A stretch of 64,000 nucleotides of DNA from a virus (taxonomy: Duplodnaviria > Heunggongvirae > Uroviricota > Caudoviricetes): IMG/VR virus record IMGVR_UViG_3300025858_001097; one strand, written 5' to 3'. Both the position numbers and the translations under genes were made by a program. Below the pieces are notes generated by a model, which saw only the letters and a program-made list of their open reading frames with translations, had not been told where the DNA came from and searched no databases. Positions 4,880-30,764 of this stretch are shown here, piece by piece; the first letter of the stretch is position 1, and each line of letters starts with the position of its first letter.

Positions 4880-5539
4880 TTAGAGTTTCAAATTTTTAGT
4901 ATTATTCTTAAATCTTTCTTCGATAAAGGAATAATTAACATCCTTTTTTTCTATATCAGAATAAGAAGCTATTTGTGTAGCTATTATCGGATTAACCAAT
5001 AAACATATATTTTTTCTTTGAAAATAACTAGCCATGAAAACATCTAGTGTGTCTTGAAATTCAATTTTTTCTAATCCATCATATTTTCTAATAAAAAAAT
5101 CGTATGTTTTATGATTATAACAAAAAGCATGACAAGCAAATGCGTTTTTAAGTAGAAGTATATTTGGTTTTGATTTTGTTATGAATTGAAGTGGTTCGTG
5201 AGTATTCGCTCCTAAATAAAACAACCACCAATCTAAATTTCCTATTTGAGATATAGATTTTTCTAAAATTTCTACGGAATTATTTATAAAATGAACGTCA
5301 TCTTCAAAAACCAGAACATTTTTTAATCCTTTTTCTTTAGCCATTTTAATAATAGCTAAATTTGATTTTACTACACCTAGACGACCATCATTTTCTTTAA
5401 TAGCTGAAAAACGTTGAACTCTTGGCAACACACCCACATTATCAAATTCTTTTTGAACTCTATCCCATCTATCAGTTCTATGATCTAAATTTATGCAATA
5501 AATTTCTTCAAAGAAATCCCAAACTTTATTATATTCCAT
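4880..5539 (-). CDS. glycosyltransferase family 25 (LPS / collagen beta-galactosyltransferase family)
   Basis: N-terminus IYCINLDHRTDRWDRVQKEF...RFSAIK matches the Glyco_transf_25 signature. It is the last gene of the fibre locus. Confidence 0.7.
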   Translation of the reverse strand: MEYNKVWDFFEEIYCINLDHRTDRWDRVQKEFDNVGVLPRVQRFSAIKENDGRLGVVKSNLAIIKMAKEKGLKNVLVFEDDVHFINNSVEILEKSISQIGNLDWWLFYLGANTHEPLQFITKSKPNILLLKNAFACHAFCYNHKTYDFFIRKYDGLEKIEFQDTLDVFMASYFQRKNICLLVNPIIATQIASYSDIEKKDVNYSFIEERFKNNTKNLKL

Positions 5540-5601: not shown

Positions 5602-8600
5602 TTATGGTGCCTCTAAATATGTATATAAAGGTATCCAACCTTCATAATAATTTCCAAGAGCATCATCATAAACAGATATTTTAGCCATACGTTCTAATTT
5701 GTATCCAGGACTTCCTATTGTTGGGAAGTTTATAGTAGTGTCTGTTAGACCAGTGAAATTTGTCAAGTTACCAGAATCAACTAAATTCTGATTAGTTATG
5801 AAATTTCCCCTCAAAGTAGTGAAAGCTTTATCAGTATTACCACTTGTTTGTAAATGTATAACTGAAAGATTATTTGAATTTGTTGATTCATAAGCGTTTA
5901 TATTACCTTTTTTATCTATATCTGTTGTTGAATGTCCTCCATAAAAATTGGACATGCCTTCGCTATTTATATCAACTCTAGTATTTCCGCTATTTCTAAT
6001 AGATAAAAGTGTTACTCCACTATCAGTTATATCATTTTTAGTATCTAAGAAATGTATAGTGTTTCCTGTATTGGCTGGATCTAATTGATAAAAAACAGAC
6101 GCTCCGCCACCAGTTATTTTATTATTGACAAATAAATCTCCTCCAGTTACTTCTCTAAAAGATATGTCATCTATTGTAACTATACCAGTACCAGACGTGT
6201 ATGTAGAAGCCATATTTATGGTAAAATCCCCAACGGCTGTAGCTGGTGTTTTTATATAAAAAGTATATGTTTTACTTACGTCTTGGGTGAAAATTAATTC
6301 ATAGGCATATCCTAAAAATGAAGAATTTATAAATCCAGTGATAATCGTTCCAGCACTATGCACAAAACTATAATTCAATCTATACCATCTATTAGGTAAT
6401 ATTGATCTAGCAAAATTAGCTGATGTTTGTGTTATAGAACCTACTCCTGTGGAGTGTGTATATGTGCCTTTATCTCCTGTGAGTGCCATATCTCCAGTGG
6501 CTGACCAACTTGTGCCACTAGTTAAAGCTGAATTTGTAAATGAATCTAATTCCAGTGTATCGAATCTTAATACTTCTTCATTTCCTCTTATCTCTGTTTT
6601 TCTTATATCATAATTACCAACAACAACAGAATTGCTTTCCATTACTTTTGTATCATAACCTATTGCAGTAGAATTAGTTAACGCGGATGTAGAATCTTTT
6701 GAAGCTCCTCGACCCAATAGGGTTAAATAACTATCAGTTGTTAAATTAGTTCTACCAGTTACTGAATAAGAAGGCTGATATACTCCAGCGTTTTGCCCTA
6801 ATACAGTATTATAACCGCCAGTCGATCCGCCAGCAGCAGAATGACCCACTATTGTATTATCATTACCAGTAGTTATGTCAGATCCGGCGTTAGATCCTAT
6901 CGCAACATTAGCCCCACCAGTAGTAGCTAATCGTAACGACGTATATCCGATGGCTACATTATTATATGACGATAAATTATACGCAGCATTATAACCAATG
7001 AGAGTATTATTTGCAGCAGTAGATATAAGTGATCCTGCGTAAACTCCTATAATTACATTAGAAGTGCCGGTTGTTAAATTAAATCCTGATCCTAAACCAA
7101 TGCCAATATTTTCTGATCCAGTTGTTAATTTATTTAAAGCTGAATGACCAACAGCAGTATTAGAATAACCATAAGTTAAAAGTCTTAGAGCTAAAGGACC
7201 TAACGCAACGTTATAATCACCGGTGGTTGATGTGTATAAAGATTCTGTGCCTACAGCGAGATTAAATACTCCAGTCGTGATATTCTTTAAAGAATTTGTT
7301 CCAATAGCTGTGTTAGAATAACCATAAGTTAAATTTTCTAAAGCTGAAGCCCCAAATGCTGTATTGGAAGTACTCCCGGTGGCAGAAAATCTCAAACTAT
7401 TGGTTCCTACTCCCAAATTATTAGGAGTGAAAGCACTTCTAGCTTCCAGACCAATTCCTGTGACAGTTGTGTGTATCAAAGGAGCCCTTATAGCGGCTGT
7501 GGATGGATCAAGTTCTTTTATTGATATATCACTAATAGTTCCACTCGCCCCAGAAGGAACTTCTATTTGAACTGTTACTGACCCTGTAGTATTGGCTGTT
7601 AAATCGGCTGATGTGATTATTATATTTTGTTTTGGATTACTTTTGACGGTTCCAACATATGCGTAAACTTCACTTTTAAAAGTATAAGTAGACGCTCCTC
7701 CAACGGTCCAACTAATTAAATATCTTCTACCTGAAGTAGCGGTTATAGTAGTACTGATAGCACTCAACGCGCCTGCACTGTGTGTATATATACCACCTCC
7801 ACTATTTACCCAATTAGTGCCGAGTGTCCACCCGGTTGGATTTATATTTAATTCGGTTGATAAATTAGGAATATCTGATGATGTATATAGATTAACGCCC
7901 GCTGTATTTAAAACACCATCTAAAGCTATTGGATTTGTGTAACTCGGTTTTAAAGTTGTGGTATTTCCTGTTATATAAAAATAGGCATATAAAGGATCGC
8001 TCCCTTTCTTGTTAGCATAAGGTACAACAGATAAAGTACTGGCCGATATTGTTAAATCGAAAGTTCTATCCATTACGTCAGTAGAGCCTGTCATTATATT
8101 AATCCAACTGGAGTAACCATTAGCGTCGCTCTTTAAAATTTTATCCTCTCCTTCCGATCCGTTAGCATATCTTAAAGTCGAAGACATCAATGTTAATACA
8201 TTTGTATCTGGATCAAAAGTAAATCCACTATCTGTATTATAGCCATATGTAGCCCCTGTATCTCTAAATATAACTTCGAGATTATCTCCTATTAGTGGAA
8301 GAAAACCACTAGTTCCACTACTACCAGATGTACCATAACTTAAACCTGATGTTCCGCTGCTACCAATACCAGAAGTTCCACTAGTTCCAGAAGATCCAGG
8401 CGACCCCGAACCGCTAGTTCCACTTGATCCTGATCCGCTAGTCCCACTCGAGCCTAAAAAATTACCATCTTTTCCACTAGTTCCGCTAGTTCCATAAAAA
8501 TTACCATCAACGCCTGAGCTACCACTTGTTCCAGATTGTCCCTGACCTCCAGCCGGTAGAAAAGATATAATATATTGTTTTCCTTCTACTAAATTTCCAT

Positions 8601-9372
8601 TGGTGTTATATGCTGACAAATTGGATATATTATGCCAATTTCCATTAGCTATAGATGTTATTCCTGTGTATATGCCAAAAAATTCAGGATTCCCCCATTC
8701 CTCTATTTTTAATATACCACCATTCCAACTATTTAACCAGTATCCTAAATCTTGACCGTTACCGTCAACATCGTTTATTGTAAAACCTGTTATCGTTCCT
8801 AAATCTGTTATACTGGCGCTACAACATCCACTATCAGGATATGTTTCACCTGTAAAAGTCCATAATCTTGTTGCTCCACCATATCCACCATCCAATCCAG
8901 ATGTACCAGATGAACCAAAACCAGATGTACCACTTGATCCTGTTAAACCACTAGTGCCTGAAGATCCTGTTTCACCGCTACTTCCACTTGTCCCTGAAGT
9001 GCCGCTCGTACCACTAGTTCCTCTGCCGCTTGTTCCACTTGTGCCGCCAGTGCCACTTGTGCCTCCAGTTCCACTAGTTCCACCTGTTCCGTCTCTACCA
9101 CTACTTCCGTTTGTTCCGTCTCTGCCACTCGTACCGCTGGTTCCATCTGCTCCGCTTGATCCAAAGAAAACTCCATCAACACCCGATGTACCATCTTTAC
9201 CAGATGTGCCGGAAGATCCAGATGCTGAAGTTCCTCCAGTGGTTATATAATGCCACGTGCAATCTTCAAATTTTTCCCATAAACCTACTAAATCTCTACC
9301 GAGGTATATATGACCGGTATCTGGACAACCAATGTCATTAGGATTTATAAGCTGGATTTTTTTGAAACTCAT
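5602..9372 (-). CDS. collagen-like fibre protein 1
   Basis: 1256 aa. It has the conserved N-terminal MSFKKIQLI(N/D)P..IG.P..GHIYLG domain shared with the genes at 15766 and 30764, and two Gly-X-Y (G-T-S / G-S-S) blocks. The C-terminal half carries YadA-head / Hep_Hag-like 14-residue repeats (NTAIG..AL..TTG). Confidence 0.8.
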   Translation of the reverse strand: MSFKKIQLINPNDIGCPDTGHIYLGRDLVGLWEKFEDCTWHYITTGGTSASGSSGTSGKDGTSGVDGVFFGSSGADGTSGTSGRDGTNGSSGRDGTGGTSGTGGTSGTGGTSGTSGRGTSGTSGTSGTSGSSGETGSSGTSGLTGSSGTSGFGSSGTSGLDGGYGGATRLWTFTGETYPDSGCCSASITDLGTITGFTINDVDGNGQDLGYWLNSWNGGILKIEEWGNPEFFGIYTGITSIANGNWHNISNLSAYNTNGNLVEGKQYIISFLPAGGQGQSGTSGSSGVDGNFYGTSGTSGKDGNFLGSSGTSGSGSSGTSGSGSPGSSGTSGTSGIGSSGTSGLSYGTSGSSGTSGFLPLIGDNLEVIFRDTGATYGYNTDSGFTFDPDTNVLTLMSSTLRYANGSEGEDKILKSDANGYSSWINIMTGSTDVMDRTFDLTISASTLSVVPYANKKGSDPLYAYFYITGNTTTLKPSYTNPIALDGVLNTAGVNLYTSSDIPNLSTELNINPTGWTLGTNWVNSGGGIYTHSAGALSAISTTITATSGRRYLISWTVGGASTYTFKSEVYAYVGTVKSNPKQNIIITSADLTANTTGSVTVQIEVPSGASGTISDISIKELDPSTAAIRAPLIHTTVTGIGLEARSAFTPNNLGVGTNSLRFSATGSTSNTAFGASALENLTYGYSNTAIGTNSLKNITTGVFNLAVGTESLYTSTTGDYNVALGPLALRLLTYGYSNTAVGHSALNKLTTGSENIGIGLGSGFNLTTGTSNVIIGVYAGSLISTAANNTLIGYNAAYNLSSYNNVAIGYTSLRLATTGGANVAIGSNAGSDITTGNDNTIVGHSAAGGSTGGYNTVLGQNAGVYQPSYSVTGRTNLTTDSYLTLLGRGASKDSTSALTNSTAIGYDTKVMESNSVVVGNYDIRKTEIRGNEEVLRFDTLELDSFTNSALTSGTSWSATGDMALTGDKGTYTHSTGVGSITQTSANFARSILPNRWYRLNYSFVHSAGTIITGFINSSFLGYAYELIFTQDVSKTYTFYIKTPATAVGDFTINMASTYTSGTGIVTIDDISFREVTGGDLFVNNKITGGGASVFYQLDPANTGNTIHFLDTKNDITDSGVTLLSIRNSGNTRVDINSEGMSNFYGGHSTTDIDKKGNINAYESTNSNNLSVIHLQTSGNTDKAFTTLRGNFITNQNLVDSGNLTNFTGLTDTTINFPTIGSPGYKLERMAKISVYDDALGNYYEGWIPLYTYLEAP
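8322..9237 (-). repeat. Gly-X-Y collagen-like 9-bp coding repeats (two blocks) of fibre protein 1
   Basis: GGN-ACN-AGN periodicity; coordinates approximate. Confidence 0.7.
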
Positions 9373-9390
9373 TTGAAGAATTTTTATTTC

Positions 9391-9635: not shown

Positions 9636-11759
9636 TTATTGTGTTAATAGTGCTCTAACAATTATTCCAGCAGGAAGTGTCGTTGCAGTATATCTAATAT
9701 AATTTCCAACATTATCTGCCGATGAACTCCAAGTATTCCAGTTAGTTCCATCTGTAGAATATTGCCAAGTACCACTACCAGATGCTACAACAGTATCATC
9801 TAAAATTAATCCATTAGTTGCCGCATTATACATTCTTATTCTTAAATTTGGTATATTTGATCCCCAAGCTGTTGATTGACGATAAGCAAATATTCTATTT
9901 GTAACACTAGATTTATTTACACTTGGCGTATAATGAGAATCTGTATTAGAATCTTCATAAACAACTGACATTGAGTATATTCTAGATGGAATGCACCAAG
10001 TTCCTAGAACCTTAAATTTTATTTTAAATTGTATTGAATCTGTTCCCCCAACACTTGTCAAATCGCCATCATTACCCAACAATGTCCATGTTCCACCACT
10101 TGATTCAAATCCTGTTGTTCTATAATAAACATCAAAATCTTCTGTAGGACAACCAAAAGTTAAGTCTCCTAATTGTCTGGTCGAGTTTACATATAATCTA
10201 TAAAATTTGACACAACCAGTCGTATTTAATATGGGTGTAGTTACAAACGAACCGAAATCATCGGCCCATCCTCTATGAGGTTTCACGGGTATCGCATATA
10301 TTTGATTCAATGCTGCGGAAGTACCATTACGACTAATATATAAATATCCAGATTCTGTATAAAGAGATACCATAGTTCCGTTTGTCGTTGGGTGTATTGG
10401 AGCACTGTTGTCAGCTGTAGATTGATCTGTTTGAAGATCATTTGCGAGGAATACGCGTTCGAACGGATCTGATGTTGTTTGATATGTTGTACAATATGAA
10501 CGACCAGCAGCCGCTCCAGATAAGAAAAGCTTATCAGTCAAATCCCCCCACTCAACTCCTGTAAAAGTTGATACAGTATATGTTGCGGTGCCTCCAGGTG
10601 GAACTTCAACCATAGAATCTGTAATAAAATTAGTTGAACCATTTGTTATTGTGCTTAAATCACTTCTATAAACCCTGGATGTTGTCACAAAATATAAAGA
10701 TTTTACACCTGATGCTACACCATGCTTTAATGTTGCTATTCTGCCATTGTTTGTAACAATAATAGTTCCAGTTAAAGCTGATGCGATCGTTCCTGTTTTA
10801 AATTGAAAAGCTGTTGTATCTTTACCTGTCGTGGGTGATAGTGACGCTCTAATATTATAAACATAATATTGATAACCGTTTGCAGAAACCGTACCGTTCA
10901 TTGCATAACAAAGATGTGTAGTATATCCACTTTTAGTATCTAATGCGCATCCCCAAGCTGTTGTCATTGTTACTGAAGCAGCATCTGCTAGCCAATACAA
11001 TGCTCGAAGATTGTCCGTATTTGCGGTGAGCGTGAATGTTAAACCTCCAGATTGAAATGTGTCTCTATTTAATCCTTTCACAAGGAATAATCCACTGTTT
11101 GTTGATGTTGCACTTGTGATTGTCATGACTACTCTTAATTCTTCCATAACATACGGGGTTCCACTTGGATAAACACCCGCACCAGTTGATAATGTTAAAC
11201 CGGTATCACTATTAATTGGTGTAGTTGTTGGATTTGACATTTCATACCAAGTTGTTATTTGTGCTGGATCAGTGCTTCCAAAACCTATACGAGCCCCAGC
11301 TGCCATTCGATCTGTAACCCATTGTGTTCCAGTTCCTTTCACAGTTGTTCCATCAACTTCAACAGTACCAGTTGTATAAGCAACATAATCCATACGAAAA
11401 CCTTTTACTGTTAAGTTACCACCAGGTCCAGTCAATGTTATAAACCCTTTATAATTAAATAAATTTTGAAATTTGTCATATTCATACATGACAACAACTC
11501 TTGTTGCTGCTGCTAATGCGATGCCTGCTAAAAATACCCAATCTATTGTATCACTCCAATGTATAACAAAGGGATATCCAACTGCGTTAGCTGTTGGAGC
11601 TTCCATTGGTCTTGCAATAGCAAGAGGAACAGTGCTCACATACCAATCGGCGGGCGTTGTGCCCGTGTTTTGTATAATTTGTGGTCCTATATAAGTCGTT
11701 GTTCCTGTATAGGTTGTTGATGTTGTACCATTAAAAATATGTTCTATTACGTTTTTCAT
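9636..11759 (-). CDS. Thr/Ser-rich beta-rich protein, putative fibre or receptor-binding component
   Basis: 707 aa. Its start codon overlaps the stop of fibre protein 2 (TAATG), suggesting translational coupling. No collagen repeat. Confidence 0.6.
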   Translation of the reverse strand: MKNVIEHIFNGTTSTTYTGTTTYIGPQIIQNTGTTPADWYVSTVPLAIARPMEAPTANAVGYPFVIHWSDTIDWVFLAGIALAAATRVVVMYEYDKFQNLFNYKGFITLTGPGGNLTVKGFRMDYVAYTTGTVEVDGTTVKGTGTQWVTDRMAAGARIGFGSTDPAQITTWYEMSNPTTTPINSDTGLTLSTGAGVYPSGTPYVMEELRVVMTITSATSTNSGLFLVKGLNRDTFQSGGLTFTLTANTDNLRALYWLADAASVTMTTAWGCALDTKSGYTTHLCYAMNGTVSANGYQYYVYNIRASLSPTTGKDTTAFQFKTGTIASALTGTIIVTNNGRIATLKHGVASGVKSLYFVTTSRVYRSDLSTITNGSTNFITDSMVEVPPGGTATYTVSTFTGVEWGDLTDKLFLSGAAAGRSYCTTYQTTSDPFERVFLANDLQTDQSTADNSAPIHPTTNGTMVSLYTESGYLYISRNGTSAALNQIYAIPVKPHRGWADDFGSFVTTPILNTTGCVKFYRLYVNSTRQLGDLTFGCPTEDFDVYYRTTGFESSGGTWTLLGNDGDLTSVGGTDSIQFKIKFKVLGTWCIPSRIYSMSVVYEDSNTDSHYTPSVNKSSVTNRIFAYRQSTAWGSNIPNLRIRMYNAATNGLILDDTVVASGSGTWQYSTDGTNWNTWSSSADNVGNYIRYTATTLPAGIIVRALLTQ

Positions 11760-21652: not shown

Positions 21653-21669
21653 ATACTTTATATTTTATT

Positions 21670-22067: not shown

Positions 22068-25000
22068 TTATATTTCAGTGTTGTTAGCAGAAACATAGGA
22101 GTATTCAATGACATCAACAGTATATTTCAATTGAAGTTTATAACTTGGCGATGGATCCCATCCAGTAGCACTCCTTAAATTATTTTTTAATAATAGATAC
22201 GGTTTACTGCTATATATTAGAGCTTCCGCATCTATATCATTAGGACCTATTTGTCCTTGTGTATCTATCGATGCGTGACGACCCGGAGATGGTGTTTCTG
22301 AATTATACTTAACCCAATACCCCGAATGTTGAACTGTTTTAGTATCTGTTACATAATTAGTATAGCTACCAGTTTGATCTACAAAGACGTTGAAACGATA
22401 TTCTCTCATCGCTGCCAATGAATAATCGATTGCTGTCATTTGTGAAGTAGTGCCAGTATCCATTAAGTGATCCATATAGTAGTAACAATTAACCTTAACA
22501 GAGAATCCACTAGTTCCATTTCCACCTGTAACTCCGTGTGTTGTGGATAAGTCTATTTTACTTTGTGAAGCCCAAGCTGTGGCCCAACTAAACGGAGGTA
22601 TATCATTTACATAATAATACGTTACTCCAATTCCAGAGGTTCCACTACTGCCTGTTATTCCTGATGTTCCACTAGTTCCTGAAGTGCCACTAACGCCACT
22701 AGTTCCACTGGTGCCATCATTTCCAGATGTTCCGCTTGTTCCTCTAGCTCCAGATGTTCCGCTAGTTCCACTACTGCCTTGTTTTCCAGATGTTCCACTA
22801 GTTCCACTAGTGCCACCTGTTCCACTGGTTCCTGATGTACCTCCAGTTCCACTAGTTCCACTACTACCTGTTATTCCAGCGGTTCCGCTAGTTCCTGATG
22901 TACCGCCAGTGCCGCTAGTTCCACTACTGCCTTGTTTTCCAGATGTTCCACTAGTTCCACTTGTACCGCCTGTGCCTGAAGTACCACCAGTGCCATCATG
23001 TCCAGATGTTCCGCTTGTTCCACTACTACCATCATTTCCAGATGTTCCACTTGTACCGCCAGTACCATTTGTTCCTGATGTACCTCCAGTTCCACTAGTT
23101 CCACTACTACCTTGTCTTCCAGAAGTACCACTGGTTCCACTTGTACCGCCTGTACCATTTGTTCCTGATGTACCTCCAGTTCCACTGGTTCCGCTACTAC
23201 CATCATTTCCAGATGTGCCTGAAGTACCACCTGTTCCGCTAGTTCCAGAAGTACCACTACTACCATCATTACCAGATGTTCCACTGGTTCCGCTACTACC
23301 ATCATTTCCAGATGTTCCGCTAGTTCCACTACTACCATCATGTCCGGATGTTCCACTAGTTCCACTAGTTCCACCTGTGCCATTTGTTCCTGATGTACCA
23401 CCAGTTCCACTAGTTCCACTACTGCCTTGTTTTCCAGAAGTACCACTTGTGCCACTAGTTCCACCCGTACCATTTGTTCCTGATGTACCACCAGTTCCAC
23501 TGGTTCCACTACTTCCATCATGTCCTGATGTGCCTGAAGTTCCTCCAGTACCACTAGTTCCACTACTGCCATCATGTCCAGATGTTCCTGAAGTTCCACC
23601 CGTGCCTGAAGTACCGCTTGTACCACCAGTGCCATCATGTCCAGAAGTACCACTAGTTCCACTACTGCCATCGTGACCAGACGTACCTGAAGTACCACTT
23701 GTTCCACTAGTTCCTGATGTACCACTTGTTCCTGATGTACCACTACTGCCATCGTGACCAGACGTACCTGAAGTACCACTTGTTCCGCTTGTACCACTAC
23801 TTCCATCATGTCCTGATGTACCTGAAGTTCCTCCAGTACCTGAAGTTCCACTACTTCCATCATGACCAGATGTGCCTGCTGTTCCTGAAGTACCACCAGT
23901 ACCATTGGTTCCTGAAGTTCCGCCCGTTCCTGATGTACCACTACTACCATCATTTCCAGATGTTCCACTAGTTCCACCAGTTCCGTTTGTTCCTGAAGTT
24001 CCACCAGTTCCACTAGTTCCACTACTCCCTGAAGTACCGTTTGTTCCAGAAGTGCCTGAAGTGCCTCCAGTTCCACTTGTACCACTACTACCTTGTTTTC
24101 CAGAAGTACCACTTGTACCACTACTACCAGAAGCACCTGAAGTGCCTGAAGTTCCTCCAGTTCCACTAGTTCCACCTGTTCCATTTGTTCCTGATGTCCC
24201 ACCAGTTCCACTAGTCCCACTACTTCCTGTTAAACCTGAAGTTCCGCCAGTTCCTGAAGTTCCTCCTGTTCCCGAGGTACCACTACTACCTTGTTTTCCA
24301 GAAGTTCCGCTAGTTCCTGAAGTTCCTCCTGTTCCGCTGGTACCTGAAGTTCCACCAGTGCCACTAGTTCCACTACTACCATCGTGTCCAGATGTTCCAC
24401 TTGTTCCACTAGTTCCACTACTTCCTGAAGTTCCTCCAGTTCCACTAGTTCCACTGCTTCCAGAAGTTCCACTAGTCCCAGAAGTACCACTAGTACCTCC
24501 AGTACCACTAGTTCCACTACTACCTTGTTTTCCAGAAGTTCCGCTGGTTCCTGAAGTACCGCTTGTGCCGCCTGTTCCGCTAGTACCTGAAGTACCACCT
24601 GTACCACTAGTTCCACTACTGCCATCGTGTCCCGAAGTACCACTAGTACCTCCAGTTCCGCTAGTTCCACTACTACCATCATGTCCAGATGTTCCACTAG
24701 TTCCACTGCTACCTGAAGTTCCTGAAGTACCATTTGTTCCACTTGTACCTGAAGTTCCACTTGTACCACTACTACCTTGTTTTCCAGAAGTACCATTTGT
24801 ACCACTTGTACCACTACTACCTGAAGTTCCACCAGTTCCAGAAGTACCGCCAGTTCCATTTGTTCCTGAAGTGCCTCCAGTTCCGCTAGTTCCACTAGTT
24901 CCACTAGTTCCATCATGACCCGATGTTCCCGAAGTTCCACCTGTACCAGATGTTCCTGATGTCCCGCCTGTTCCGCTTGTTCCACTACTTCCATCATGAC

Positions 25001-28000
25001 CCGATGTTCCTGAAGTGCCACCCGTGCCTGAAGTACCACCTGTACCAGATGTTCCTGATGTCCCGCCTGTTCCGCTTGTTCCACTACTTCCATCATGACC
25101 CGATGTTCCTGAAGTGCCACCCGTGCCTGAAGTACCACCTGTGCCACCAGTTCCACTAGTTCCACTACTTCCAGAAGTTCCACTAGTTCCACTACTTCCA
25201 GAAGTTCCGCTTGTTCCACTACTACCATCGTGGCCAGAAGTTCCACTAGTTCCAGCAGTTCCACTTGTGCCAGAAGTGCCACCTGTTCCGCTTGTACCAC
25301 TACTTCCATCATGTCCAGATGTACCTGATGTTCCACTTGTTCCGGAAGTACCACCTGTTCCACTTGTACCACTACTTCCATCATGTCCAGATGTACCTGA
25401 TGTTCCACTTGTTCCTGCTGTACCTGATGTTCCACTTGTACCGCCTGTACCTGAAGTTCCACTACTACCTGATGTTCCACTCGTGCCACTAGTTCCCGAA
25501 GTACCACTACTACCTTGTTTTCCAGAAGTACCACTTGTACCACTAGTTCCACTACTTCCTGAAGTTCCACCAGTTCCAGAAGTACCACCTGTTCCATTTG
25601 TACCTGATGTACCACTTGTCCCGCTAGTTCCGCTAGTCCCACTACTACCATCATGTCCAGATGTTCCAGAAGTTCCAGAAGTACCACCTGTTCCGTTAGT
25701 TCCTGAAGTACCACCTGCTCCACTAGTTCCACTACTTCCATCATGACCTGAAGTTCCAGAAGTACCACTTGTCCCGCTAGTTCCGCTAGTCCCACTACTA
25801 CCATCATGTCCAGATGTTCCTGAAGTTCCAGAAGTACCACCTGTTCCACTAGTTCCACTACTTCCATCACGACCTGAAGTTCCTGAAGTGCCGCCTGTTC
25901 CGTTAGTTCCTGAAGTACCACCTGTTCCACTAGTTCCACTAGTTCCGCTTGTTCCACTACTACCACTAGTACCGCCAGTTCCGCCTGTACCAGAAGTACC
26001 ACTTGTTCCCGATGTGCCACTGCTACCATCATGACCGGAAGTTCCACTAGTTCCACTTGTTCCACTAGTTCCACTACTACCATCATGTCCAGAAGTACCA
26101 CTAGTTCCTGAAGTACCACCTGTTCCACTAGTTCCTGAAGTGCCGCCTGTTCCACTTGTACCACTGCTACCATCAACGCCCGAAGTTCCAGAAGTTCCTC
26201 CTGTACCTGATGTTCCATTTGTCCCACTTGTGCCTCCAGTGCCTGAAGTACCACTACTACCAGATGTGCCTGAAGTTCCTCCAGTACCACTAGTTCCACT
26301 ACTACCTTGTTTTCCAGAAGTACCACTAGTTCCACTACTTCCAGAAGTTCCTGAAGTGCCAGAAGTTCCCCCAGTGCCACTTGTTCCTCCAATACCACTA
26401 GTTCCACTACTTCCAGAAGTTCCTGAAGTGCCAGAAGTTCCCCCAGTGCCACTTGTTCCTCCAATACCACTAGTTCCACTACTTCCATCATAACCACTTG
26501 TTCCCGAAGTTCCTCCCGTACCTGATGTTCCTGAAGTACCACCTGTACCACTAGTTCCACTACTTCCATCATGACCACTTGTTCCAGAAGTGCCACTGCT
26601 ACCACTTGTACCGCTTGTTCCGCCAGTACCAGAAGTGCCACCTGTTCCACTAGTTCCACTAGTACCGCTACTACCATCGTGTCCTGATGTACCACTTGTT
26701 CCTGAAGTTCCTCCAGTACCACTAGTTCCGCTAGTTCCTGAAGTTCCACTACTTCCATCGTGACCAGAAGTACCACTAGTTCCACTAGTTCCGTTTGTTC
26801 CTGAAGTTCCACCAGTTCCACTACTTCCTGTCGCACCTGATGTTCCAGAGGTTCCGCCGGCACCGCTAGTTCCTGATGTACCGCCAGTTCCACTAGTTCC
26901 ACTACTTCCTCCTGTACCTGATGTGCCACTAGTTCCAGAAGTTCCACTCGTACCACCAGTTCCACTAGTTCCACTACTACCTTGTTTACCGGAAGTACCA
27001 CTTGTACCACTACTTCCAGAAGTTCCCGAAGTGCCTGAAGTTCCTCCAGTACCACTTGTTCCTCCAGTACCACTAGTTCCACTACTTCCTGTTGCGCCAG
27101 AAGTTCCAGATGTTCCGCCTGTTCCAGATGTACCACTAGTTCCACCTGTTCCAGATGTACCGCTACTCCCATCGTGACCTGAAGTACCTGATGTACCTGA
27201 AGTACCACTTGTTCCTCCTGTTCCTGAAGTTCCTCCAGTTCCGCTAGTCCCACTACTTCCTGAAGTTCCGCTAGTCCCACTTGTTCCTGAAGTTCCACCT
27301 GTGCCATTTGTTCCACTAGTACCACTTGATCCTGATACTCCACTTGTTCCACTAGTTCCTCCAGTTCCACTAGTTCCACCTGTTCCACTAGTTCCAGAAG
27401 AACCAGACGTACCACTTGTTCCGCTAGTTCCCGAAGTACCACTACTACCTTTTGCGCCCGAAGTTCCACTAGTTCCAGATATACCACTAGTTCCACCTGT
27501 ACCTGATGTACCGCTCGTGCCGCCAGTTCCGCTAGTCCCGCTACTTCCACTTGTACCACTACTACCAGATGTTCCATTAGTTCCTGAAGTACCACCAGTG
27601 CCATTCGTGCCACTCGTACCTCCAGTTCCTGAAGTACCACTACTACCTGATGTTCCACTAGTTCCACTACTTCCAGAAGTTCCACTAGTTCCACTAGTTC
27701 CAGAAGTGCCACTGCTACCTGATGTACCGCTAGATCCAGAAGTACCACTAGTTCCTGATGTACCTGAAGTTCCACTTGTTCCTGAAGTACCGCCTGTTCC
27801 ACTAGTACCGCTACTTCCTTGGGCTCCACTAGTTCCACTGGTTCCACTTGTACCCCCAGTACCGCTTGTTCCTGATGTCCCGCCTGTTCCACTAGTTCCA
27901 CTACTACCTTGAGCCCCACTAGTTCCTGAAGTACCACTGCTACCTTGTGCTCCGCTGGTTCCACTTGTACCACCAGTTCCGCTAGTTCCACTACTACCTT

Positions 28001-30764
28001 GAGCCCCGCTTGTTCCTGAAGTACCACCAGTACCACTCGTACCACTTGTACCACTTGTTCCCCCAGTACCACTAGTTCCACTACTACCTGATGTTCCACT
28101 AGTTCCACTACTTCCAGAAGTGCCTGAAGTTCCACCAGTTCCGCTTGTTCCAGATGAACCAGAAGTACCACTACTGCCCTGAGCTCCTGAAGTTCCAGAT
28201 GTACCACCAGTCCCAGATGTTCCACTAGTTCCGCCAGTTCCGCTAGTTCCACTACTTCCTGAAGTACCTGATGTTCCACTACTACCAGATGTTCCCCCCG
28301 TACCTGAAGTTCCGCTAGATCCAGATGTTCCTCCTGACCCGCTTGTACCAGATGTTCCACTTGTACCGCCAGTTCCGCTAGTTCCACTACTACCTTGAGC
28401 TCCACTAGTTCCACTCGTGCCACTAGTTCCTGAAGTTCCACTACTACCTTGAGCTCCACTAGTTCCACTTGTTCCGCTAGATCCGCTAGTTCCACTAGTA
28501 CCGCTTGTGCCCGATGTACCTGAAGTTCCACTAGAACCACTTGTACCGCTGGTTCCACTGATACCAGTCAATCCACTAGTTCCACTTGTTCCTGAGGTGC
28601 CCCCAGTTCCGCTCGTACCGCTAGATCCAGAAGTACCACTACTACCAGAAGTACCTGAAGAACCTGATGTTCCGCTAGTTCCACTACTACCTGATGTTCC
28701 ACTTGTTCCAGACGTACCACTAGTCCCGCTAGTACCTGAAGTTCCACTAGTTCCACTGGATCCTGAAGTTCCCCCAGTGCCACTAGTTCCACTACTACCT
28801 TGAGCTCCACTAGTTCCAGAAGTCCCACTACTACCTGATGTTCCACTTGTTCCAGAAGTACCACTACTACCCGATGTTCCAGATGTACCACCAGTCCCAG
28901 ATGTTCCACTACTTCCACTAGTCCCTGAAGTTCCTGATGTTCCAGACGAACCACTCGTTCCTGATGTTCCTCCTGTACCTGATGTTCCTCCGGTTCCACT
29001 ACTTCCTTGTGCTCCACTAGTTCCACTGGTTCCTGAAGTTCCGCTACTACCTGTTAAACCACTGGTTCCACTAGAACCACTAGTACCACTACTACCACTA
29101 GTTCCTGATGTTCCGCTTGTACCACTGCTGCCAGATGTTCCACTAGTACCACTACTTCCTGAAGTTCCACTAGTACCACTAGTTCCTGATGTTCCGCTTG
29201 TACCACTGCTGCCAGATGTTCCACTAGTACCACTACTTCCTGAAGTTCCACTAGTTCCGCTACTACCACTAGTTCCAGATGTACCACTACTACCTTGTGC
29301 TCCACTAGTTCCACTACTACCAGTTTCTCCTGATGTTCCGCTGGTTCCGCTTGTACCTGAAGTTCCACTGGAACCAAAACCACTAGTACCAGATGTTCCT
29401 AAACCAGCATCAGTATAAGTAAAAACAATAGGTTCGTCTAATATAAAATTGTTATTTGAATCTATCGGTGTAACATCTAATGTCCACCAAGATCCATTAT
29501 CTGTTTTAGCATCTAAATAAAAAGTTGCAAATTTAGTAGAATCGTATTCATCGAATATTCTGATTCTAGACATTCCATTGGCATTAAGACTACTTAACCA
29601 AGAACTTATATCAACACCATCTTTACTTGTCTGACTTATGTATATTTGAGTTACTGAACCGTATACAGTATTATCAAATTTTAAATATCCAGATAGAGGA
29701 TTTGATGCTGTTGTTCCTGTTAAGAAATAATATGGTTGGCTATCACCTCCAAATATTCCAGATAAACCAGAAGATCCAGGAGAACCCATACCTGATGTTC
29801 CACTAGTTCCACTTACACCACTACTTCCATAAAACCATCCATCAACACCAGATGATCCTGAAGTCCCACTACTTCCAGTTCCACCTTGAATATAAGATAT
29901 TAAATACGATTTCCCGTTTGTAGCTGAACCTCCTCCTGATGCGTAAACTGAAAATCCAGTTATTTCATAAAAATTGCCACCTAATCCAAGATTAACACTA
30001 TTAATGGGAACATTATATATGCCTACAACTGAAAGATTTTCTCTCTCTTCTATTTTTAATACGCCTTGAATATTCCACGAACTTAACCAATTATTTACAA
30101 GATCTCCATTCGCGTCCCATTTATTTATTCTTATATTTGTTACAGCCCCTAAATTTGAATTATTTATGTAGAATTTTCCATTCCCAGGAGTTGATGTACT
30201 ATTATCATAAACCCATTTACGCGTAGCTCCACCATAACCACCATCTATACCGCTACTTCCACTAGTTCCACTACTACCTCCGAGTCCTGATGTACCACTT
30301 GATCCACTAGAGCCTGATGTACCTGAAGATCCTGCTTCGCCGCTACTTCCACTTGTTCCGGATGTACCACTTGTGCCACTTGTTCCTCTACCGCTTGTTC
30401 CGCTTGTGCCACCTGTTCCACTCGTACCTCCAGTTCCACTGGTTCCGCCAGTTCCGTCTCTGCCGCTGCTACCACTTGATCCATCTCTACCACTACTACC
30501 ACTTGTTCCATCAGCTCCGCTTGATCCAAAGAAAACACCATCAACACCCGATGTACCGTCTTTTCCAGATGTGCCACTAGTTCCACCTCCACCACTTCCT
30601 GAAGATGTCGCACCAGTACATGGCAAATAATAAATATTTCCCCACTCGTCCTTTTGCCAAAGGCCGCAAAAACCATCTATAAAATCTTGACCTAAGTATA
30701 TATGCCCCGGATCTGGATTACCAATTAGTTTCGGGTCTACTCTTTGGATTTTTTTGAAACTCAT
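22068..30764 (-). CDS. giant collagen-like fibre protein 3 (2898 aa)
   Basis: Conserved N-terminal domain MSFKKIQRVDPKLIGNPDPGHIYLG. About 2250 residues of uninterrupted Gly-X-Y (mostly GTS/GSS, punctuated by GHD/GKQ/GND/GRD triplets). C-terminal globular domain of about 185 aa. Confidence 0.85.
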   Translation of the reverse strand: MSFKKIQRVDPKLIGNPDPGHIYLGQDFIDGFCGLWQKDEWGNIYYLPCTGATSSGSGGGGTSGTSGKDGTSGVDGVFFGSSGADGTSGSSGRDGSSGSSGRDGTGGTSGTGGTSGTGGTSGTSGRGTSGTSGTSGTSGSSGEAGSSGTSGSSGSSGTSGLGGSSGTSGSSGIDGGYGGATRKWVYDNSTSTPGNGKFYINNSNLGAVTNIRINKWDANGDLVNNWLSSWNIQGVLKIEERENLSVVGIYNVPINSVNLGLGGNFYEITGFSVYASGGGSATNGKSYLISYIQGGTGSSGTSGSSGVDGWFYGSSGVSGTSGTSGMGSPGSSGLSGIFGGDSQPYYFLTGTTASNPLSGYLKFDNTVYGSVTQIYISQTSKDGVDISSWLSSLNANGMSRIRIFDEYDSTKFATFYLDAKTDNGSWWTLDVTPIDSNNNFILDEPIVFTYTDAGLGTSGTSGFGSSGTSGTSGTSGTSGETGSSGTSGAQGSSGTSGTSGSSGTSGTSGSSGTSGTSGSSGTSGTSGTSGTSGTSGSSGTSGTSGSSGTSGTSGTSGSSGTSGSSGTSGLTGSSGTSGTSGTSGAQGSSGTGGTSGTGGTSGTSGSSGTSGTSGTSGSSGTSGTGGTSGTSGSSGTSGTSGTSGSSGTSGTSGAQGSSGTSGTGGTSGSSGTSGTSGTSGTSGTSGTSGTSGSSGTSGTSGSSGTSGSSGTSGSSGTSGTGGTSGTSGTSGLTGISGTSGTSGSSGTSGTSGTSGTSGTSGSSGTSGTSGAQGSSGTSGTSGTSGTSGAQGSSGTSGTGGTSGTSGTSGSGGTSGSSGTSGTGGTSGSSGTSGTSGSSGTSGTGGTSGTSGTGGTSGTSGAQGSSGTSGSSGTSGTGGTSGTSGSSGTSGTSGSSGTSGTGGTSGTSGTSGTGGTSGTSGAQGSSGTSGTGGTSGTSGAQGSSGTSGTSGAQGSSGTSGTGGTSGTSGTGGTSGTSGTSGAQGSSGTSGTGGTSGTSGTSGTSGTSGTSGSSGTSGSSGTSGTSGTSGTSGSSGTSGTSGSSGTSGTGGTSGTNGTGGTSGTNGTSGSSGTSGSSGTSGTGGTSGTSGTGGTSGISGTSGTSGAKGSSGTSGTSGTSGTSGSSGTSGTGGTSGTGGTSGTSGVSGSSGTSGTNGTGGTSGTSGTSGTSGSSGTSGTGGTSGTGGTSGTSGTSGTSGHDGSSGTSGTGGTSGTSGTGGTSGTSGATGSSGTSGTGGTSGTGGTSGTSGTSGSSGTSGTSGKQGSSGTSGTGGTSGTSGTSGTSGTGGSSGTSGTGGTSGTSGAGGTSGTSGATGSSGTGGTSGTNGTSGTSGTSGHDGSSGTSGTSGTSGTGGTSGTSGTSGHDGSSGTSGTSGTGGTSGTGGTSGTSGSSGTSGTSGHDGSSGTSGTGGTSGTSGTGGTSGTSGYDGSSGTSGIGGTSGTGGTSGTSGTSGSSGTSGIGGTSGTGGTSGTSGTSGSSGTSGTSGKQGSSGTSGTGGTSGTSGSSGTSGTGGTSGTNGTSGTGGTSGTSGVDGSSGTSGTGGTSGTSGTGGTSGTSGTSGHDGSSGTSGTSGTSGTSGHDGSSGTSGTSGTSGTGGTGGTSGSSGTSGTSGTSGTGGTSGTNGTGGTSGTSGRDGSSGTSGTGGTSGTSGTSGHDGSSGTSGTSGTSGTSGTSGHDGSSGTSGAGGTSGTNGTGGTSGTSGTSGHDGSSGTSGTSGTSGTSGTNGTGGTSGTGGTSGSSGTSGTSGTSGKQGSSGTSGTSGTSGTSGSSGTSGTGGTSGTSGTAGTSGTSGTSGHDGSSGTSGTGGTSGTSGTSGTSGHDGSSGTSGTGGTSGTSGTAGTSGTSGHDGSSGTSGTSGSSGTSGTSGSSGTSGTGGTGGTSGTGGTSGTSGHDGSSGTSGTGGTSGTSGTGGTSGTGGTSGTSGHDGSSGTSGTGGTSGTSGTGGTSGTSGHDGTSGTSGTSGTGGTSGTNGTGGTSGTGGTSGSSGTSGTNGTSGKQGSSGTSGTSGTSGTNGTSGTSGSSGTSGTSGHDGSSGTSGTGGTSGTSGHDGSSGTSGTGGTSGTSGTGGTSGTSGTSGTSGKQGSSGTSGTGGTSGTSGTSGTSGSSGTSGTGGTSGSSGTSGTSGTSGHDGSSGTSGTGGTSGTSGTGGTSGTSGTSGKQGSSGTSGTGGTSGTGGTSGLTGSSGTSGTGGTSGTNGTGGTSGTGGTSGTSGASGSSGTSGTSGKQGSSGTSGTGGTSGTSGTNGTSGSSGTSGTGGTSGTNGTGGTSGTSGNDGSSGTSGTGGTSGTNGTGGTSGTAGTSGHDGSSGTSGTGGTSGTSGHDGSSGTSGTSGTSGTSGHDGSSGTSGTSGTSGTSGTSGTSGTSGHDGSSGTSGTSGHDGTGGTSGTSGTGGTSGTSGHDGSSGTSGTGGTSGTSGHDGSSGTSGTGGTSGTNGTGGTSGTSGTSGKQGSSGTSGTGGTSGTNGTGGTSGTSGTSGHDGSSGTSGTSGNDGSSGTSGTSGNDGSSGTSGTSGTGGTSGTSGNDGSSGTSGTGGTSGTNGTGGTSGTSGTSGRQGSSGTSGTGGTSGTNGTGGTSGTSGNDGSSGTSGTSGHDGTGGTSGTGGTSGTSGTSGKQGSSGTSGTGGTSGTSGTAGITGSSGTSGTGGTSGTSGTGGTSGTSGTSGKQGSSGTSGTSGARGTSGTSGNDGTSGTSGVSGTSGTSGTSGITGSSGTSGIGVTYYYVNDIPPFSWATAWASQSKIDLSTTHGVTGGNGTSGFSVKVNCYYYMDHLMDTGTTSQMTAIDYSLAAMREYRFNVFVDQTGSYTNYVTDTKTVQHSGYWVKYNSETPSPGRHASIDTQGQIGPNDIDAEALIYSSKPYLLLKNNLRSATGWDPSPSYKLQLKYTVDVIEYSYVSANNTEI
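22626..29400 (-). repeat. about 6.8 kb of continuous 9-bp (Gly-X-Y) coding repeat
   Basis: GGN ACN AGN periodicity throughout; approximate bounds. Confidence 0.8.

What the first reader, a model, noticed from the sequence alone, without database searches (positions are those of the whole stretch)
4880..30764. 26-kb co-directional fibre megalocus: three giant collagen-like genes with a shared N-terminal domain plus sugar-modifying enzymes
All genes from 30764 down to 4880 are on the minus strand and tightly spaced; several use overlapping or coupled start/stop codons. There are three collagen-like proteins of 1256, 1335 and 2898 aa. They share a roughly 45-aa N-terminal module (MSFKK(I/L)Q..(N/D)P..IG.P..G.IYLG.D..GLW.K), plausibly a virion/base anchor. 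Their Gly-X-Y repeats are almost entirely Thr/Ser (GTS, GSS) with no proline, which suggests dense O-glycosylation, as in the BclA-type GXT collagens of spore surfaces and the glycosylated fibrils of giant viruses. Interleaved genes are a GT25 enzyme (the family that contains collagen galactosyltransferases), a UXS-type UDP-xylose synthase, a radical-SAM enzyme, a GT-A-like transferase, an RCC1 propeller, a Gly-rich protein, a small collagen-motif protein and a Thr-rich fibre-like protein. Together this looks like a self-contained biogenesis and glycosylation system for extremely long surface fibres. I do not recognise this arrangement as a described system.
Basis: partly seen in the sequence, partly recalled or inferred. 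Interest (0 to 1): 0.85.

Follow-up and report, generated by a model that had tools for sequence, protein, structure and literature searches.

The report
Huge-phage collagen-like tail-fibre island
This is the variable host-recognition (tail-fibre) island of an uncultured huge phage: it encodes three very long, proline-free collagen-like fibre proteins and a glycine-rich adhesin, and it has picked up a widespread, undescribed enzyme cassette that probably modifies such fibre proteins chemically.

Summary
All genes from 4880 to 30764 are on the minus strand and closely spaced. The three collagen-like ORFs have exactly the stated lengths. The largest has 750 uninterrupted Gly-X-Y triplets, no proline, and is 93% Gly/Ser/Thr.

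The window comes from a relative of the 735-kb 'Mahaphage' LR756501. That phage has a syntenic fibre island between the same flanking genes.

- The shared N-terminal region is about 270-290 aa (45-aa module, collagen linker, 110-aa beta-barrel domain), not 45 aa.
- The 'UXS' is UXS-derived but lacks the UXS signature residues Ser119, Glu120 and Arg277.
- The 'Gly-rich protein' is homologous to solved phage tail-fibre adhesin domains (Pam3 gp24).

The new result concerns the GT-A glycosyltransferase, radical-SAM and SDR genes. They form a mobile cassette found in at least 166 uncultured viral contigs. Its constant neighbours are the radical-SAM enzyme and glycine-rich adhesin proteins, not collagen. 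LR756501 lacks the cassette but keeps the GT25-like gene at the island's edge.

Fibre modification is therefore plausible but accessory and unproven. Overall this is a new variant of a known kind, of moderate to high interest.

The parts
22068..30764 (-). Fibre protein C, 2898 aa. N-module aa 1-47. Collagen linker. D1 beta-barrel aa 178-295 (29880-30233). D2 aa 339-455 (29400-29750). 750 uninterrupted GXY triplets aa 464-2713 (22626-29375). Globular C-terminal domain of 185 aa.
   Evidence: (Pfam Collagen 2.7e-187)
21670..22008 (-). 112-aa protein of unknown function; phage family phrog_1084.
   Evidence: E 1.2e-5; no Pfam or NCBIfam match
21281..21652 (-). 123-aa protein of unknown function.
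   Evidence: no match in Pfam, PHROGs or NCBIfam
20495..21181 (-). GT-A-fold glycosyltransferase, 228 aa, with an invariant D75-x-D77 motif. First gene of the mobile cassette.
19572..20498 (-). Radical-SAM enzyme, 308 aa from the ATG. CX3CX2C motif plus five further invariant Cys, suggesting an auxiliary cluster. Second gene of the cassette; overlaps the GT-A gene by 4 nt.
18684..19568 (-). Extended SDR derived from the UDP-glucuronate decarboxylase (UXS) lineage, without the UXS signature residues. Third gene of the cassette.
17454..18638 (-). RCC1-repeat beta-propeller protein.
   Evidence: RCC1 1.2e-56; phage RCC1 PHROGs
16576..17415 (-). 279-aa short fibre-like protein with two short GXY runs. 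Its N- and C-terminal domains match the ends of large collagen-like proteins in LR756501 and L004.
15821..16561 (-). Gly_rich_2 protein: a TNF-like plus glycine-rich (polyglycine-II type) tail-fibre adhesin domain.
   Evidence: Pfam PF21722, 39.8 bits. Profile against PDB: Pam3 tail fibre gp24 at 4.5e-10 and Bxb1 gp33 at 4e-7. Literature.
11759..15766 (-). Fibre protein B, 1335 aa, GTG start. N-module, linker, D1 (aa 152-268), two collagen blocks, a 640-aa central non-collagen region, and a C-terminal 115-aa domain shared with phage virion proteins.
   Evidence: phrog_10330 and tail-fibre PHROGs
9636..11759 (-). 707-aa Thr-rich protein of unknown function. Its start codon overlaps the stop of B.
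   Evidence: no match in Pfam, PHROGs, NCBIfam, PDB or GenBank phages. Exact copies in 8 public contigs.
5602..9372 (-). Fibre protein A, 1256 aa. N-module, linker, D1 (aa 163-275), short collagen runs, and a distal region with tail-spike-like repeats.
   Evidence: (phrog_4636 tail spike 5e-32)
4880..5539 (-). GT25-like glycosyltransferase, 219 aa. It bounds the island and is conserved at 77% identity at the same position in LR756501.

Best explanation
The region is the hypervariable host-recognition island of a huge phage related to the 735-kb phage LR756501, for which a Bacteroidota host has been predicted.

Fibres. Three paralogous proteins share an N-terminal region of about 270-290 aa: a 45-aa module, a collagen-like linker and the D1 beta-barrel. 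I infer that this region docks them to the same site on the virion, most likely the tail or baseplate. Each paralogue carries a different distal part. Their Gly-Thr-Ser repeats would form trimeric rope-like stalks; the longest would be about 0.64 um if it is a collagen triple helix. A separate Gly_rich_2 protein supplies a Pam3 gp24-type glycine-rich adhesin domain.

Enzymes. Two enzyme sets are attached to the island. The GT25-like transferase is conserved at the island's edge in this phage clade. The horizontally mobile cassette (GT-A glycosyltransferase, auxiliary-cluster radical-SAM enzyme, UXS-derived SDR) is almost always adjacent to glycine-rich adhesin proteins in other phages, and sometimes to collagen-like ones. 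I infer that these enzymes make a modified nucleotide sugar and attach or decorate a glycan on the adhesin or fibre proteins. That would tune stability, shielding or receptor binding.

Shown versus inferred.
- Shown: gene content, homologies, synteny and gene linkage.
- Inferred: virion location, trimeric helix, and the enzymes' substrate and chemistry.
For: Phage identity and synteny.
- PRPP synthase is 74% identical to LR756501.
- Both flanks of the island are conserved: TonB receptor/PnuC/NadR/nicotinamidase on one side, and GT25-like/AMMECR1/thioredoxin/M42 peptidase on the other.
- LR756501 carries three N-module collagen-like genes (814, about 2830 and 3487 aa) plus a Gly_rich_2 gene in the island.

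Fibre nature.
- The N-module + linker + D1 architecture occurs in six more IMG/VR phage contigs, often as tandem paralogues, next to a gp23-like capsid protein or a tail sheath.
- The D domain has 2189 relatives, often repeated within collagen-containing proteins. It matches pelagiphage and cyanophage tail-fibre genes.
- A and B match tail-spike and tail-fibre PHROGs.
- Gly_rich_2 is homologous to solved tail-fibre proteins.

Enzyme linkage.
- The same order, GT-A then rSAM then SDR, lies directly downstream of collagen-like and/or Gly_rich_2 proteins in L013, L016, L017/18 and L019, across GC 35-57%.
- Of 42 IMG/VR loci with full flanks, 33 have rSAM or Gly_rich_2 adjacent, mostly within 100 nt.
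- 13 of 15 hits in MAG contigs show the same adjacency.
- Methyltransf_24 is fused either to GT-A or to rSAM.
- GT-A is about 55-60% identical across phages, whereas the adjacent adhesins are 28-40% identical. This argues for a conserved acceptor.
- The GT25-like gene lies beside fibre or Gly_rich_2 genes in four of six close contexts.
Against: - There is no direct evidence that any of these proteins is in the virion or is glycosylated.
- LR756501 lacks the GT-A and rSAM genes genome-wide, and no homologue of them or of the cassette SDR lies in its fibre island, yet it has longer collagen-like proteins. The cassette is therefore not needed to make the fibres.
- Only 4 of 79 GT-A loci have a collagen-like neighbour.
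- The SDR lacks the residues that define UXS, so the sugar is unknown.
- Glycosyltransferases are common in tail-fibre hypervariable regions of marine myophages and have been interpreted as host-surface modifiers.
- In L004 the fibre genes follow the major capsid gene, so capsid attachment is not excluded.
- Gly-Thr-Ser triplets are poor triple-helix formers according to host-guest peptide data. This point rests on my own knowledge and was not tested.
Confidence: 0.6

Rival explanations
1. The sugar and radical-SAM enzymes are auxiliary genes that remodel the host's surface glycans during infection, for example to block superinfection or to stop progeny re-adsorbing to debris. On this view they sit in the fibre island only because it is a recombination hot spot.
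For: - The pelagimyophage literature describes glycosyltransferases and radical-SAM cassettes in tail-fibre hypervariable regions and interprets them this way.
- The cassette is absent from the closest relative.
- The cassette is mobile across GC 29-69% genomes.
- GT25 is primarily an LPS-biosynthesis family (Pfam description).
Against: - The gene-to-gene adjacency with Gly_rich_2 proteins is tight, often 4 nt, and always on the same strand. It recurs in very different phages.
- The enzyme is far more conserved than the adhesins, which presumably track different receptors.
- The best structural match of GT-A is a virus enzyme deposited as a putative glycosyltransferase involved in glycosylating the PBCV-1 major capsid protein.
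Confidence: 0.25
2. The collagen-like proteins are head or neck fibres (capsid decoration or whiskers) that increase the capture radius or bind the environment, not baseplate receptor-binding fibres.
For: - In L004 the N-module genes directly follow the prohead protease and the gp23-like capsid gene.
- A stalk of 0.64 um is far longer than usual tail fibres.
- B's C-terminal domain matches PHROGs labelled 'virion structural protein' in the head and packaging category.
Against: - D-domain relatives are annotated as tail-fibre or baseplate-connector genes.
- A matches tail-spike PHROGs.
- The Gly_rich_2 partner is a tail-fibre domain in solved structures.
- In L008 the genes lie about 5 kb from a confirmed tail sheath gene, and L009 carries an uncharacterised ORF with a similar N-terminus.
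Confidence: 0.15
3. The Gly-Thr-Ser arrays do not form a collagen triple helix. They would instead be flexible, mucin-like or polyproline-II spacers, possibly heavily O-glycosylated.
For: - There is no Pro and almost no charged residues in 2250 aa.
- Thr in X and Ser in Y are weak helix formers (my own knowledge).
- Glycine-rich PPII bundles occur in the same locus family.
Against: - Gly is kept at every third position for 750 triplets without a single interruption. That constraint is expected for a triple helix and is unnecessary for a disordered spacer.
- The Pfam Collagen score is 607 bits.
- Phage collagen-like tail-fibre families match.
Confidence: 0.2
4. The giant ORF is an assembly or annotation artefact of a repetitive region.
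For: The exact 2898-aa product is not found in other assemblies. Other frames also contain long ORFs.
Against: - It is the only frame free of stops. Its N- and C-terminal globular domains are in frame and homologous to domains in LR756501.
- The repeats are degenerate at the DNA level.
- LR756501, a curated complete genome, has 2719-3487-aa counterparts.
Confidence: 0.03

Closest known systems
Collagen-like phage tail-fibre and minor-tail proteins (PHROGs 1806, 5073, 6320; prophage collagen-like proteins of E. coli O157)
   Same: Both have Gly-X-Y stalks between an N-terminal attachment part and a variable distal part.
   Different: - These are 5-20 times longer: 750 uninterrupted triplets.
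- The composition is Pro-free Gly-Thr-Ser.
- They share a conserved module + D1 N-terminal region.
- They occur in a huge phage and are linked to modifying enzymes.
Pam3 gp24 tail fibre, Bxb1 gp33 'tail wing brush' and S16 gp38 adhesin (TNF-like plus glycine-rich polyglycine-II domain)
   Same: The window's Gly_rich_2 protein matches Pam3 gp24 and Bxb1 gp33 by profile. In Pam3 this domain recognises the host.
   Different: - Here it is a separate 246-aa protein; in other phages it is fused to a collagen-like stalk.
- No sequence-level link to S16 gp38 was found (hhalign probability 0.6%).
- A GT-A/rSAM cassette has not been described next to those fibre genes.
Virion glycosylation systems: PBCV-1 A64R capsid glycosylation, Mimivirus fibril glycosylation, mycobacteriophage capsid and tail-tube O-glycosylation
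   Same: All are virus-encoded GT-A enzymes, with methyltransferase fusions, placed next to structural genes. A64R is the best structural match of the 228-aa enzyme. Virion glycosylation in mycobacteriophages is documented (cited).
   Different: - This system includes an auxiliary-cluster radical-SAM enzyme and a UXS-derived SDR.
- Its inferred acceptor is a tail-fibre adhesin or collagen-like stalk.
- It has no experimental support.
BclA-type glycosylated collagen-like proteins of Bacillus and Clostridioides spores
   Same: Both are Thr-rich collagen-like surface filaments, and BclA has known O-glycosylation.
   Different: BclA repeats are Gly-Pro-Thr, with Thr in the Y position and Pro present. 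Here Thr is in X, Ser in Y, and there is no Pro. No homology of the terminal domains was found.
Human UDP-xylose synthase (UXS1)
   Same: It is the best solved homologue of the SDR (4e-60). Thr118, Tyr147 and Lys151 are conserved.
   Different: Ser119, Glu120 and Arg277, which are invariant in UXS enzymes, are Val, Arg and Val here. The 119-144 loop is shortened by 14 residues. The same changes occur in all five cassette SDRs examined.

Membership tests
Collagen triple-helix repeat proteins (PF01391) | Uninterrupted Gly-X-Y periodicity over many triplets | tested here: met
   750 consecutive triplets in C; runs of up to 40 triplets in B and 16 in A. Pfam scores: 607 bits for C, 119 for B, and 25.1 for A, which is just under the 27.2 cut-off.
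Collagen triple-helix repeat proteins (PF01391) | Stabilising residues: Pro/Hyp, or the charged pairs found in bacterial collagens | tested here: not met
   In the 2250-aa run there are 0 Pro, 36 Asp, 11 Lys, 3 Arg and 1 Glu.
Collagen triple-helix repeat proteins (PF01391) | Trimeric triple-helical fold | not testable with these tools
   This needs circular dichroism, protease resistance, EM or a multimer prediction.
UDP-xylose synthase (UXS) | SDR catalytic triad Thr118/Tyr147/Lys151 and closest overall similarity | tested here: met
   phmmer gives 206 bits to hUXS1 against 109 bits for the next family. The triad is aligned.
UDP-xylose synthase (UXS) | UXS-specific Ser119, Glu120 and Arg277 | tested here: not met
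   They are replaced by Val, Arg and Val, and a loop is deleted, in this SDR and four other cassette SDRs. Their defining role is taken from PMC3438964.
Glycosyltransferase family 25 | Match to the family profile above the curated threshold, over most of the domain | tested here: inconclusive
   30.4 bits against a cut-off of 24, but only profile positions 66-122 of 199 are matched. The match to the COLGALT1 GT25 domain is weak (E 2e-3).
GT-A fold glycosyltransferases | Rossmann-like GT-A fold with a DxD motif | tested here: met
Radical SAM superfamily | CX3CX2C cluster motif and a profile match | tested here: met
   C18, C22 and C25 are invariant, as are five further Cys. Pfam gives 29.9 against a cut-off of 29.5. 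No curated subfamily is reached.
Gly_rich_2 / Pam3 gp24-type tail-fibre adhesin domain | Full-length profile match, including the non-glycine strands | tested here: met
   PF21722 at 39.8 bits against a cut-off of 24.3, covering positions 2-225 of 226. The profile hits Pam3 gp24 at 4.5e-10 across both ends of the domain.
T-even gp38 adhesins (S16 gp38) | Detectable sequence homology | tested here: not met
   hhalign probability is 0.6%. Only a structural resemblance between Pam3 gp24 and gp38 is reported, in PMC9608196.
BclA-type spore collagen-like glycoproteins | Gly-X-Thr repeats (Thr in Y, usually Gly-Pro-Thr) | tested here: not met
   The dominant triplets are GTS (435), GSS (112) and GTG (102).
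Mahaphage-group huge phages | Shared gene order and high protein identity with a member genome | tested here: met
   Identity is 53-77% over 12 flanking genes in conserved order on both sides of the island. Marker-gene phylogeny was not done.

The most novel reading that the evidence does not exclude
Many uncultured phages may carry an undescribed post-translational modification system. It would consist of a GT-A glycosyltransferase plus an auxiliary-cluster radical-SAM enzyme, with an optional SAM methyltransferase and UXS-derived SDR. Its dedicated substrates would be glycine-rich (polyglycine-II) tail-fibre adhesins and their collagen-like stalks. In the largest known phages this system would decorate Pro-free Gly-Thr-Ser collagen ropes more than 0.6 um long, whose folding or stability depends on that modification.
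Probability: 0.3. Interest if true: 0.85.

Novelty: new variant of a known kind. Interest (0 to 1): 0.65.

Why it matters
- Receptor-binding fibres set phage host range. Enzymatic modification of the adhesin itself would add a layer of host-range and immune-evasion control that is little explored and is absent from current tail-fibre engineering.
- The cassette is easy to test. It comprises three small, highly conserved genes plus a small substrate protein, and occurs in at least 166 viral contigs.
- The Pro-free, charge-poor Gly-Thr-Ser arrays of 750 triplets challenge current rules for collagen stability. They could also be of interest as biomaterials.
- The finding gives a first functional reading of a roughly 26-34-kb island in the largest known phage genomes, whose published description does not mention it.

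Tried and rejected
- A word-index homologue search with a chimeric N-module + D1 query gave only one hit.
- I tried to build a gapped profile from fragments. MAFFT misaligned them, and HMMER's fragment rule would have defeated the design, so I searched the D domain alone.
- Gly_rich_2 against S16 gp38 by hhalign showed no relation.
- Single-sequence Gly_rich_2 searches against PDB and GenBank phages found nothing. Only the profile worked.
The reciprocal statistic, the fraction of Gly_rich_2 genes that have a GT-A neighbour, could therefore not be measured.
- The 707-aa protein has no homologue with any annotation.
- Exact look-up of the 2898-aa product found nothing on record.
- The sigma-70 promoter and terminator scan was at chance level. 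It says nothing about a single transcript beyond the absence of intergenic minus-strand terminators.
- A giant eukaryotic virus origin was rejected on the T4-like capsid, sheath and protease genes in related contigs and on synteny with LR756501.
- DNA glycosylation was considered for the transferases. It is not favoured, given their placement and the structural match to A64R, but it is not excluded.
Full report
**1. Observation**

The ORF map confirms 13 co-directional minus-strand genes between 4880 and 30764. Spacing runs from -4 to 99 nt, apart from one 263-nt gap at 9373-9635. Two junctions overlap.

The three large ORFs have the stated lengths: 1256, 1335 and 2898 aa. Gly-X-Y runs make up 13%, 30% and 84% of them. 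Thr dominates position X and Ser position Y.

Protein C contains 750 uninterrupted triplets (aa 464-2713) with no proline and 93% Gly/Ser/Thr. This is the only reading frame without stops. Ser is encoded by both the AGY and the TCN codon families, which shows selection on the protein in this frame. The DNA repeats are degenerate.

Two independent public assemblies carry the same genes, from the 112-aa ORF through protein A and beyond. The 2898-aa product itself is not on record elsewhere.

Local GC rises to 44-50% against a 28-30% background, simply because of GGN/ACN/TCN codons.

**2. What genome this is**

The window contains no tRNA genes and one Rfam motif. It encodes:
- NAD-salvage genes (nicotinamidase, NadR, PnuC);
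- a TonB-dependent receptor;
- PRPP synthase, PPK2, a DNA ligase domain and an HNH endonuclease.

PRPP synthase is 74% identical to the 735-kb uncultured phage LR756501. That is the largest genome in Al-Shayeb et al. 2020, which assigns its largest genomes to the Mahaphage clade and predicts Bacteroidetes hosts for those above 634 kb.

Both flanks of the fibre region are syntenic with LR756501:
- upstream: TonB receptor, PnuC, NadR, lipoprotein and nicotinamidase, at 56-63% identity;
- downstream: GT25-like at 77%, then AMMECR1, thioredoxin and M42 peptidase.

Between these flanks LR756501 carries:
- three collagen-like genes that start with the same MSFKK module (814, about 2830 and 3487 aa; the last has 2565 aa in Gly-X-Y);
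- five laminin-G/ConA-like proteins;
- an 1183-aa collagen-like protein and a 529-aa Gly_rich_2 protein.

It has no homologue there of the GT-A, radical-SAM, SDR, RCC1 or 707-aa genes. The region is therefore a bounded, hypervariable fibre island. The huge-phage paper does not mention collagen, tail fibres or glycosyltransferases. A jumbo-phage comparative review does not mention collagen or radical SAM either.

**3. The fibre proteins**

It comprises:
- a 43-47-aa module with 18 invariant positions;
- a collagen-like linker of about 100 aa;
- a domain of about 110 aa, here called D1.

This arrangement is present in all three window paralogues, in the three LR756501 genes, and in every hit of an IMG/VR scan with the module. 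That scan gave six contigs; one of them has four tandem paralogues. Those contigs are clearly tailed phages, with a gp23-like capsid protein, a prohead protease and a tail sheath.

A profile of D1/D2 finds 2189 cluster representatives among 1.84 billion proteins. The domain is often present in 3-8 copies per protein, and 87 of the 151 sequences examined have collagen runs. Eighteen carry the N-module, and those are mostly 300-670 aa, so the giant versions are unusual.

By tblastn the D region matches a pelagiphage tail-fibre gene and cyanophage genes annotated as 'baseplate wedge tail fiber connector'. Protein A's distal part matches a tail-spike PHROG at 5e-32. B matches many tail-fibre PHROGs, and its C-terminal 115 aa match virion structural protein families.

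A conserved N-terminus with variable distal parts in tandem paralogues is the classical layout of phage receptor-binding fibres. Attachment to the tail rather than the head is inferred, not shown.

If the 750-triplet run forms a collagen helix, at 0.286 nm per residue (established value), the stalk would be about 0.64 um long.

**4. The glycine-rich protein**

The 246-aa product of 15821-16561 is a full-length Gly_rich_2 (PF21722) domain. A profile of 14 such domains matches solved structures:
- Pam3 tail fibre gp24 (7YFW/7YPX), E 4.5e-10, aligned over both the strand-forming ends and the glycine motifs;
- mycobacteriophage Bxb1 gp33 'tail wing brush', E 4e-7;
- the Flavobacterium protein RemZ, E 2e-8.

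In Pam3 the TNF-like plus glycine-rich domain forms the distal, receptor-recognising end of the fibre, and it structurally resembles the S16 gp38 adhesin. A direct profile comparison with S16 gp38 is negative.

This is the strongest evidence that the island is a tail-fibre module.

**5. The enzymes**

It has an invariant DxD motif.

*The radical-SAM enzyme.* It belongs to a similarly conserved family of 553 hits at 54-73% identity. Besides CX3CX2C it has five more invariant cysteines. Only the cluster-binding N-terminus resembles curated maturase families.

*The SDR.* Its best solved homologue by far is human UXS1. The alignment shows that Thr118, Tyr147 and Lys151 are conserved. Ser119, Glu120 and Arg277 are replaced by Val, Arg and Val, and a 14-residue loop is deleted. 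The four other cassette SDRs share the loop deletion, carry Arg or Lys in place of Glu120, and lack Arg277. The UXS structure paper names exactly these three residues as the invariant UXS signature needed for decarboxylation chemistry and for retaining the 4-keto intermediate. The enzyme is therefore UXS-derived, but it should not be called a UDP-xylose synthase.

*The GT25-like protein.* It passes the Pfam threshold on a partial match only. Its close relatives occur in five other phage contexts. Three of these lie next to N-module collagen genes or a Gly_rich_2 gene. More distant relatives (27-33% identity) lie on IMG/VR contigs, three of which are giant-virus MAG contigs.

**6. The cassette is mobile and has a constant partner**

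Genomic contexts of GT-A and rSAM homologues show the same order, GT-A then rSAM then SDR, in several unrelated contigs:
- L013/L014 (160-kb phage contig): directly downstream of a 1377-aa collagen-like protein that ends in a Gly_rich_2 domain, and upstream of a baseplate gene;
- L016 (GC 56%): downstream of an 899-aa collagen-like protein with Gly_rich_2;
- L017/L018 (GC 36%): the order is collagen-like protein, a second rSAM, Gly_rich_2, GT-A, rSAM, SDR, then three paralogous proteins with GTS/GSS repeats;
- L019: a collagen-like ORF of more than 1472 aa, a second rSAM, Gly_rich_2, GT-A, a homing endonuclease, rSAM, SDR.

A scan of IMG/VR found 166 relatives of GT-A. In the 79 loci retrieved:
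- rSAM is present in 37;
- a Gly_rich_2 protein in 30;
- the SDR in 14;
- a collagen-like ORF in only 4.

Among the 42 loci with at least 3 kb on both sides, 33 have rSAM or Gly_rich_2. These are usually within 100 nt and always on the same strand.

In 185,579 species genomes there are only 15 hits, all on MAG contigs. Thirteen of them show the same neighbours. GenBank phages contain essentially none, which explains the silence of the literature.

A Methyltransf_24 domain is fused to GT-A in some loci and to rSAM in others. This links the three activities in one pathway.

**7. Interpretation**

The enzyme is much better conserved than the adjacent adhesins: about 55-60% identity against 28-40%. 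Adjacency is at the level of coupled genes. The best structural analogue is a viral capsid-glycosylating enzyme. For these reasons I favour modification of the fibre or adhesin proteins themselves.

The evidence does not single out the Thr/Ser collagen repeats as the acceptor. The glycine-rich adhesin domain is the statistically constant partner, and collagen stalks are an optional accessory that happens to be extreme in this phage clade.

LR756501 lacks GT-A and rSAM genome-wide and has no cassette homologue in its fibre island, so the cassette is accessory, not a biogenesis requirement. The GT25-like gene is the clade-conserved transferase of the island.

The main rival is that these are host-surface-remodelling auxiliary genes parked in a recombination hot spot, as proposed for pelagimyophages. 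It cannot be excluded without experiments.

**8. Verdict**

Collagen-like phage fibres and virion glycosylation are both known kinds. Three things are new:
- the scale and composition of the collagen arrays in Mahaphage-type genomes;
- the conserved module + D1 N-terminal region;
- above all, the widespread, undescribed GT-A/radical-SAM (with or without methyltransferase and SDR) cassette coupled to glycine-rich tail-fibre adhesins.

Noticed in passing
window 63566-63601 (-): A DUF805b RNA motif (Rfam RF02914, 41.8 bits, above the gathering score) lies just upstream of an SPFH/Band_7 gene (62511-63545) in a phage genome.
   Followed up: no
window 30842-37541 and 50487-52291: There is an NAD-salvage and nucleotide block: nicotinamidase, NadR-like, PnuC, a PEBP protein and a full TonB-dependent outer-membrane receptor, plus PPK2 and PRPP synthase. 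The nicotinamidase, NadR-like, PnuC, TonB-receptor and PRPP synthase genes have counterparts in LR756501. A phage-encoded TonB-dependent receptor is unusual.
   Followed up: partly
window 32797-33636, 57616-59268, 61385-62275: Three DUF7487-containing proteins are present, probably homing-endonuclease-like. One lies between NadR and PnuC. That position is empty in LR756501 but occupied in IMG/VR contig L005.
   Followed up: no
PDB 8GL8 chain D (RemZ); window 15821-16561: The Flavobacterium johnsoniae protein RemZ shares the Gly_rich_2 domain with phage tail fibres (E 2e-8). Flavobacterium belongs to Bacteroidota, the predicted host phylum, so host and phage may exchange adhesin domains.
   Followed up: no
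L104-L113: Distant relatives (27-33% identity) of the GT25-like protein lie on IMG/VR contigs, three of which are labelled as giant-virus MAG contigs (GVMAG). None has a collagen-like ORF nearby.
   Followed up: partly
L019 7226-7999: A NUMOD3 homing endonuclease is inserted between the GT-A and rSAM genes of the cassette.
   Followed up: no
window 8921-9210 versus 30286-30575: Proteins A and C share 83% DNA identity over the first collagen linker only. The neighbouring N-module and D1 give no blastn match, which suggests local gene conversion between paralogues.
   Followed up: partly
window 15725-15766: Protein B must start at the GTG at 15766 to include the conserved N-module. Gene calls in public assemblies start it 14 codons downstream, giving 1321 aa.
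   Followed up: yes
window 9373-9635: This is the only long intergenic gap in the island (263 nt). Public gene calls place a 47-aa ORF there. Its function is unknown.
   Followed up: no
L017 9810-13468: Three paralogous proteins with N-terminal GTS/GSS repeats follow the cassette. One has a weak match to the virginiamycin B lyase-type beta-propeller family (49.5 bits against a cut-off of 50).
   Followed up: no
window 39971-41467 and 45585-46733: Two M28-peptidase-like proteins are present. One matches a phage peptidase PHROG at 1e-61 and has a 52%-identical relative in L006.
   Followed up: no
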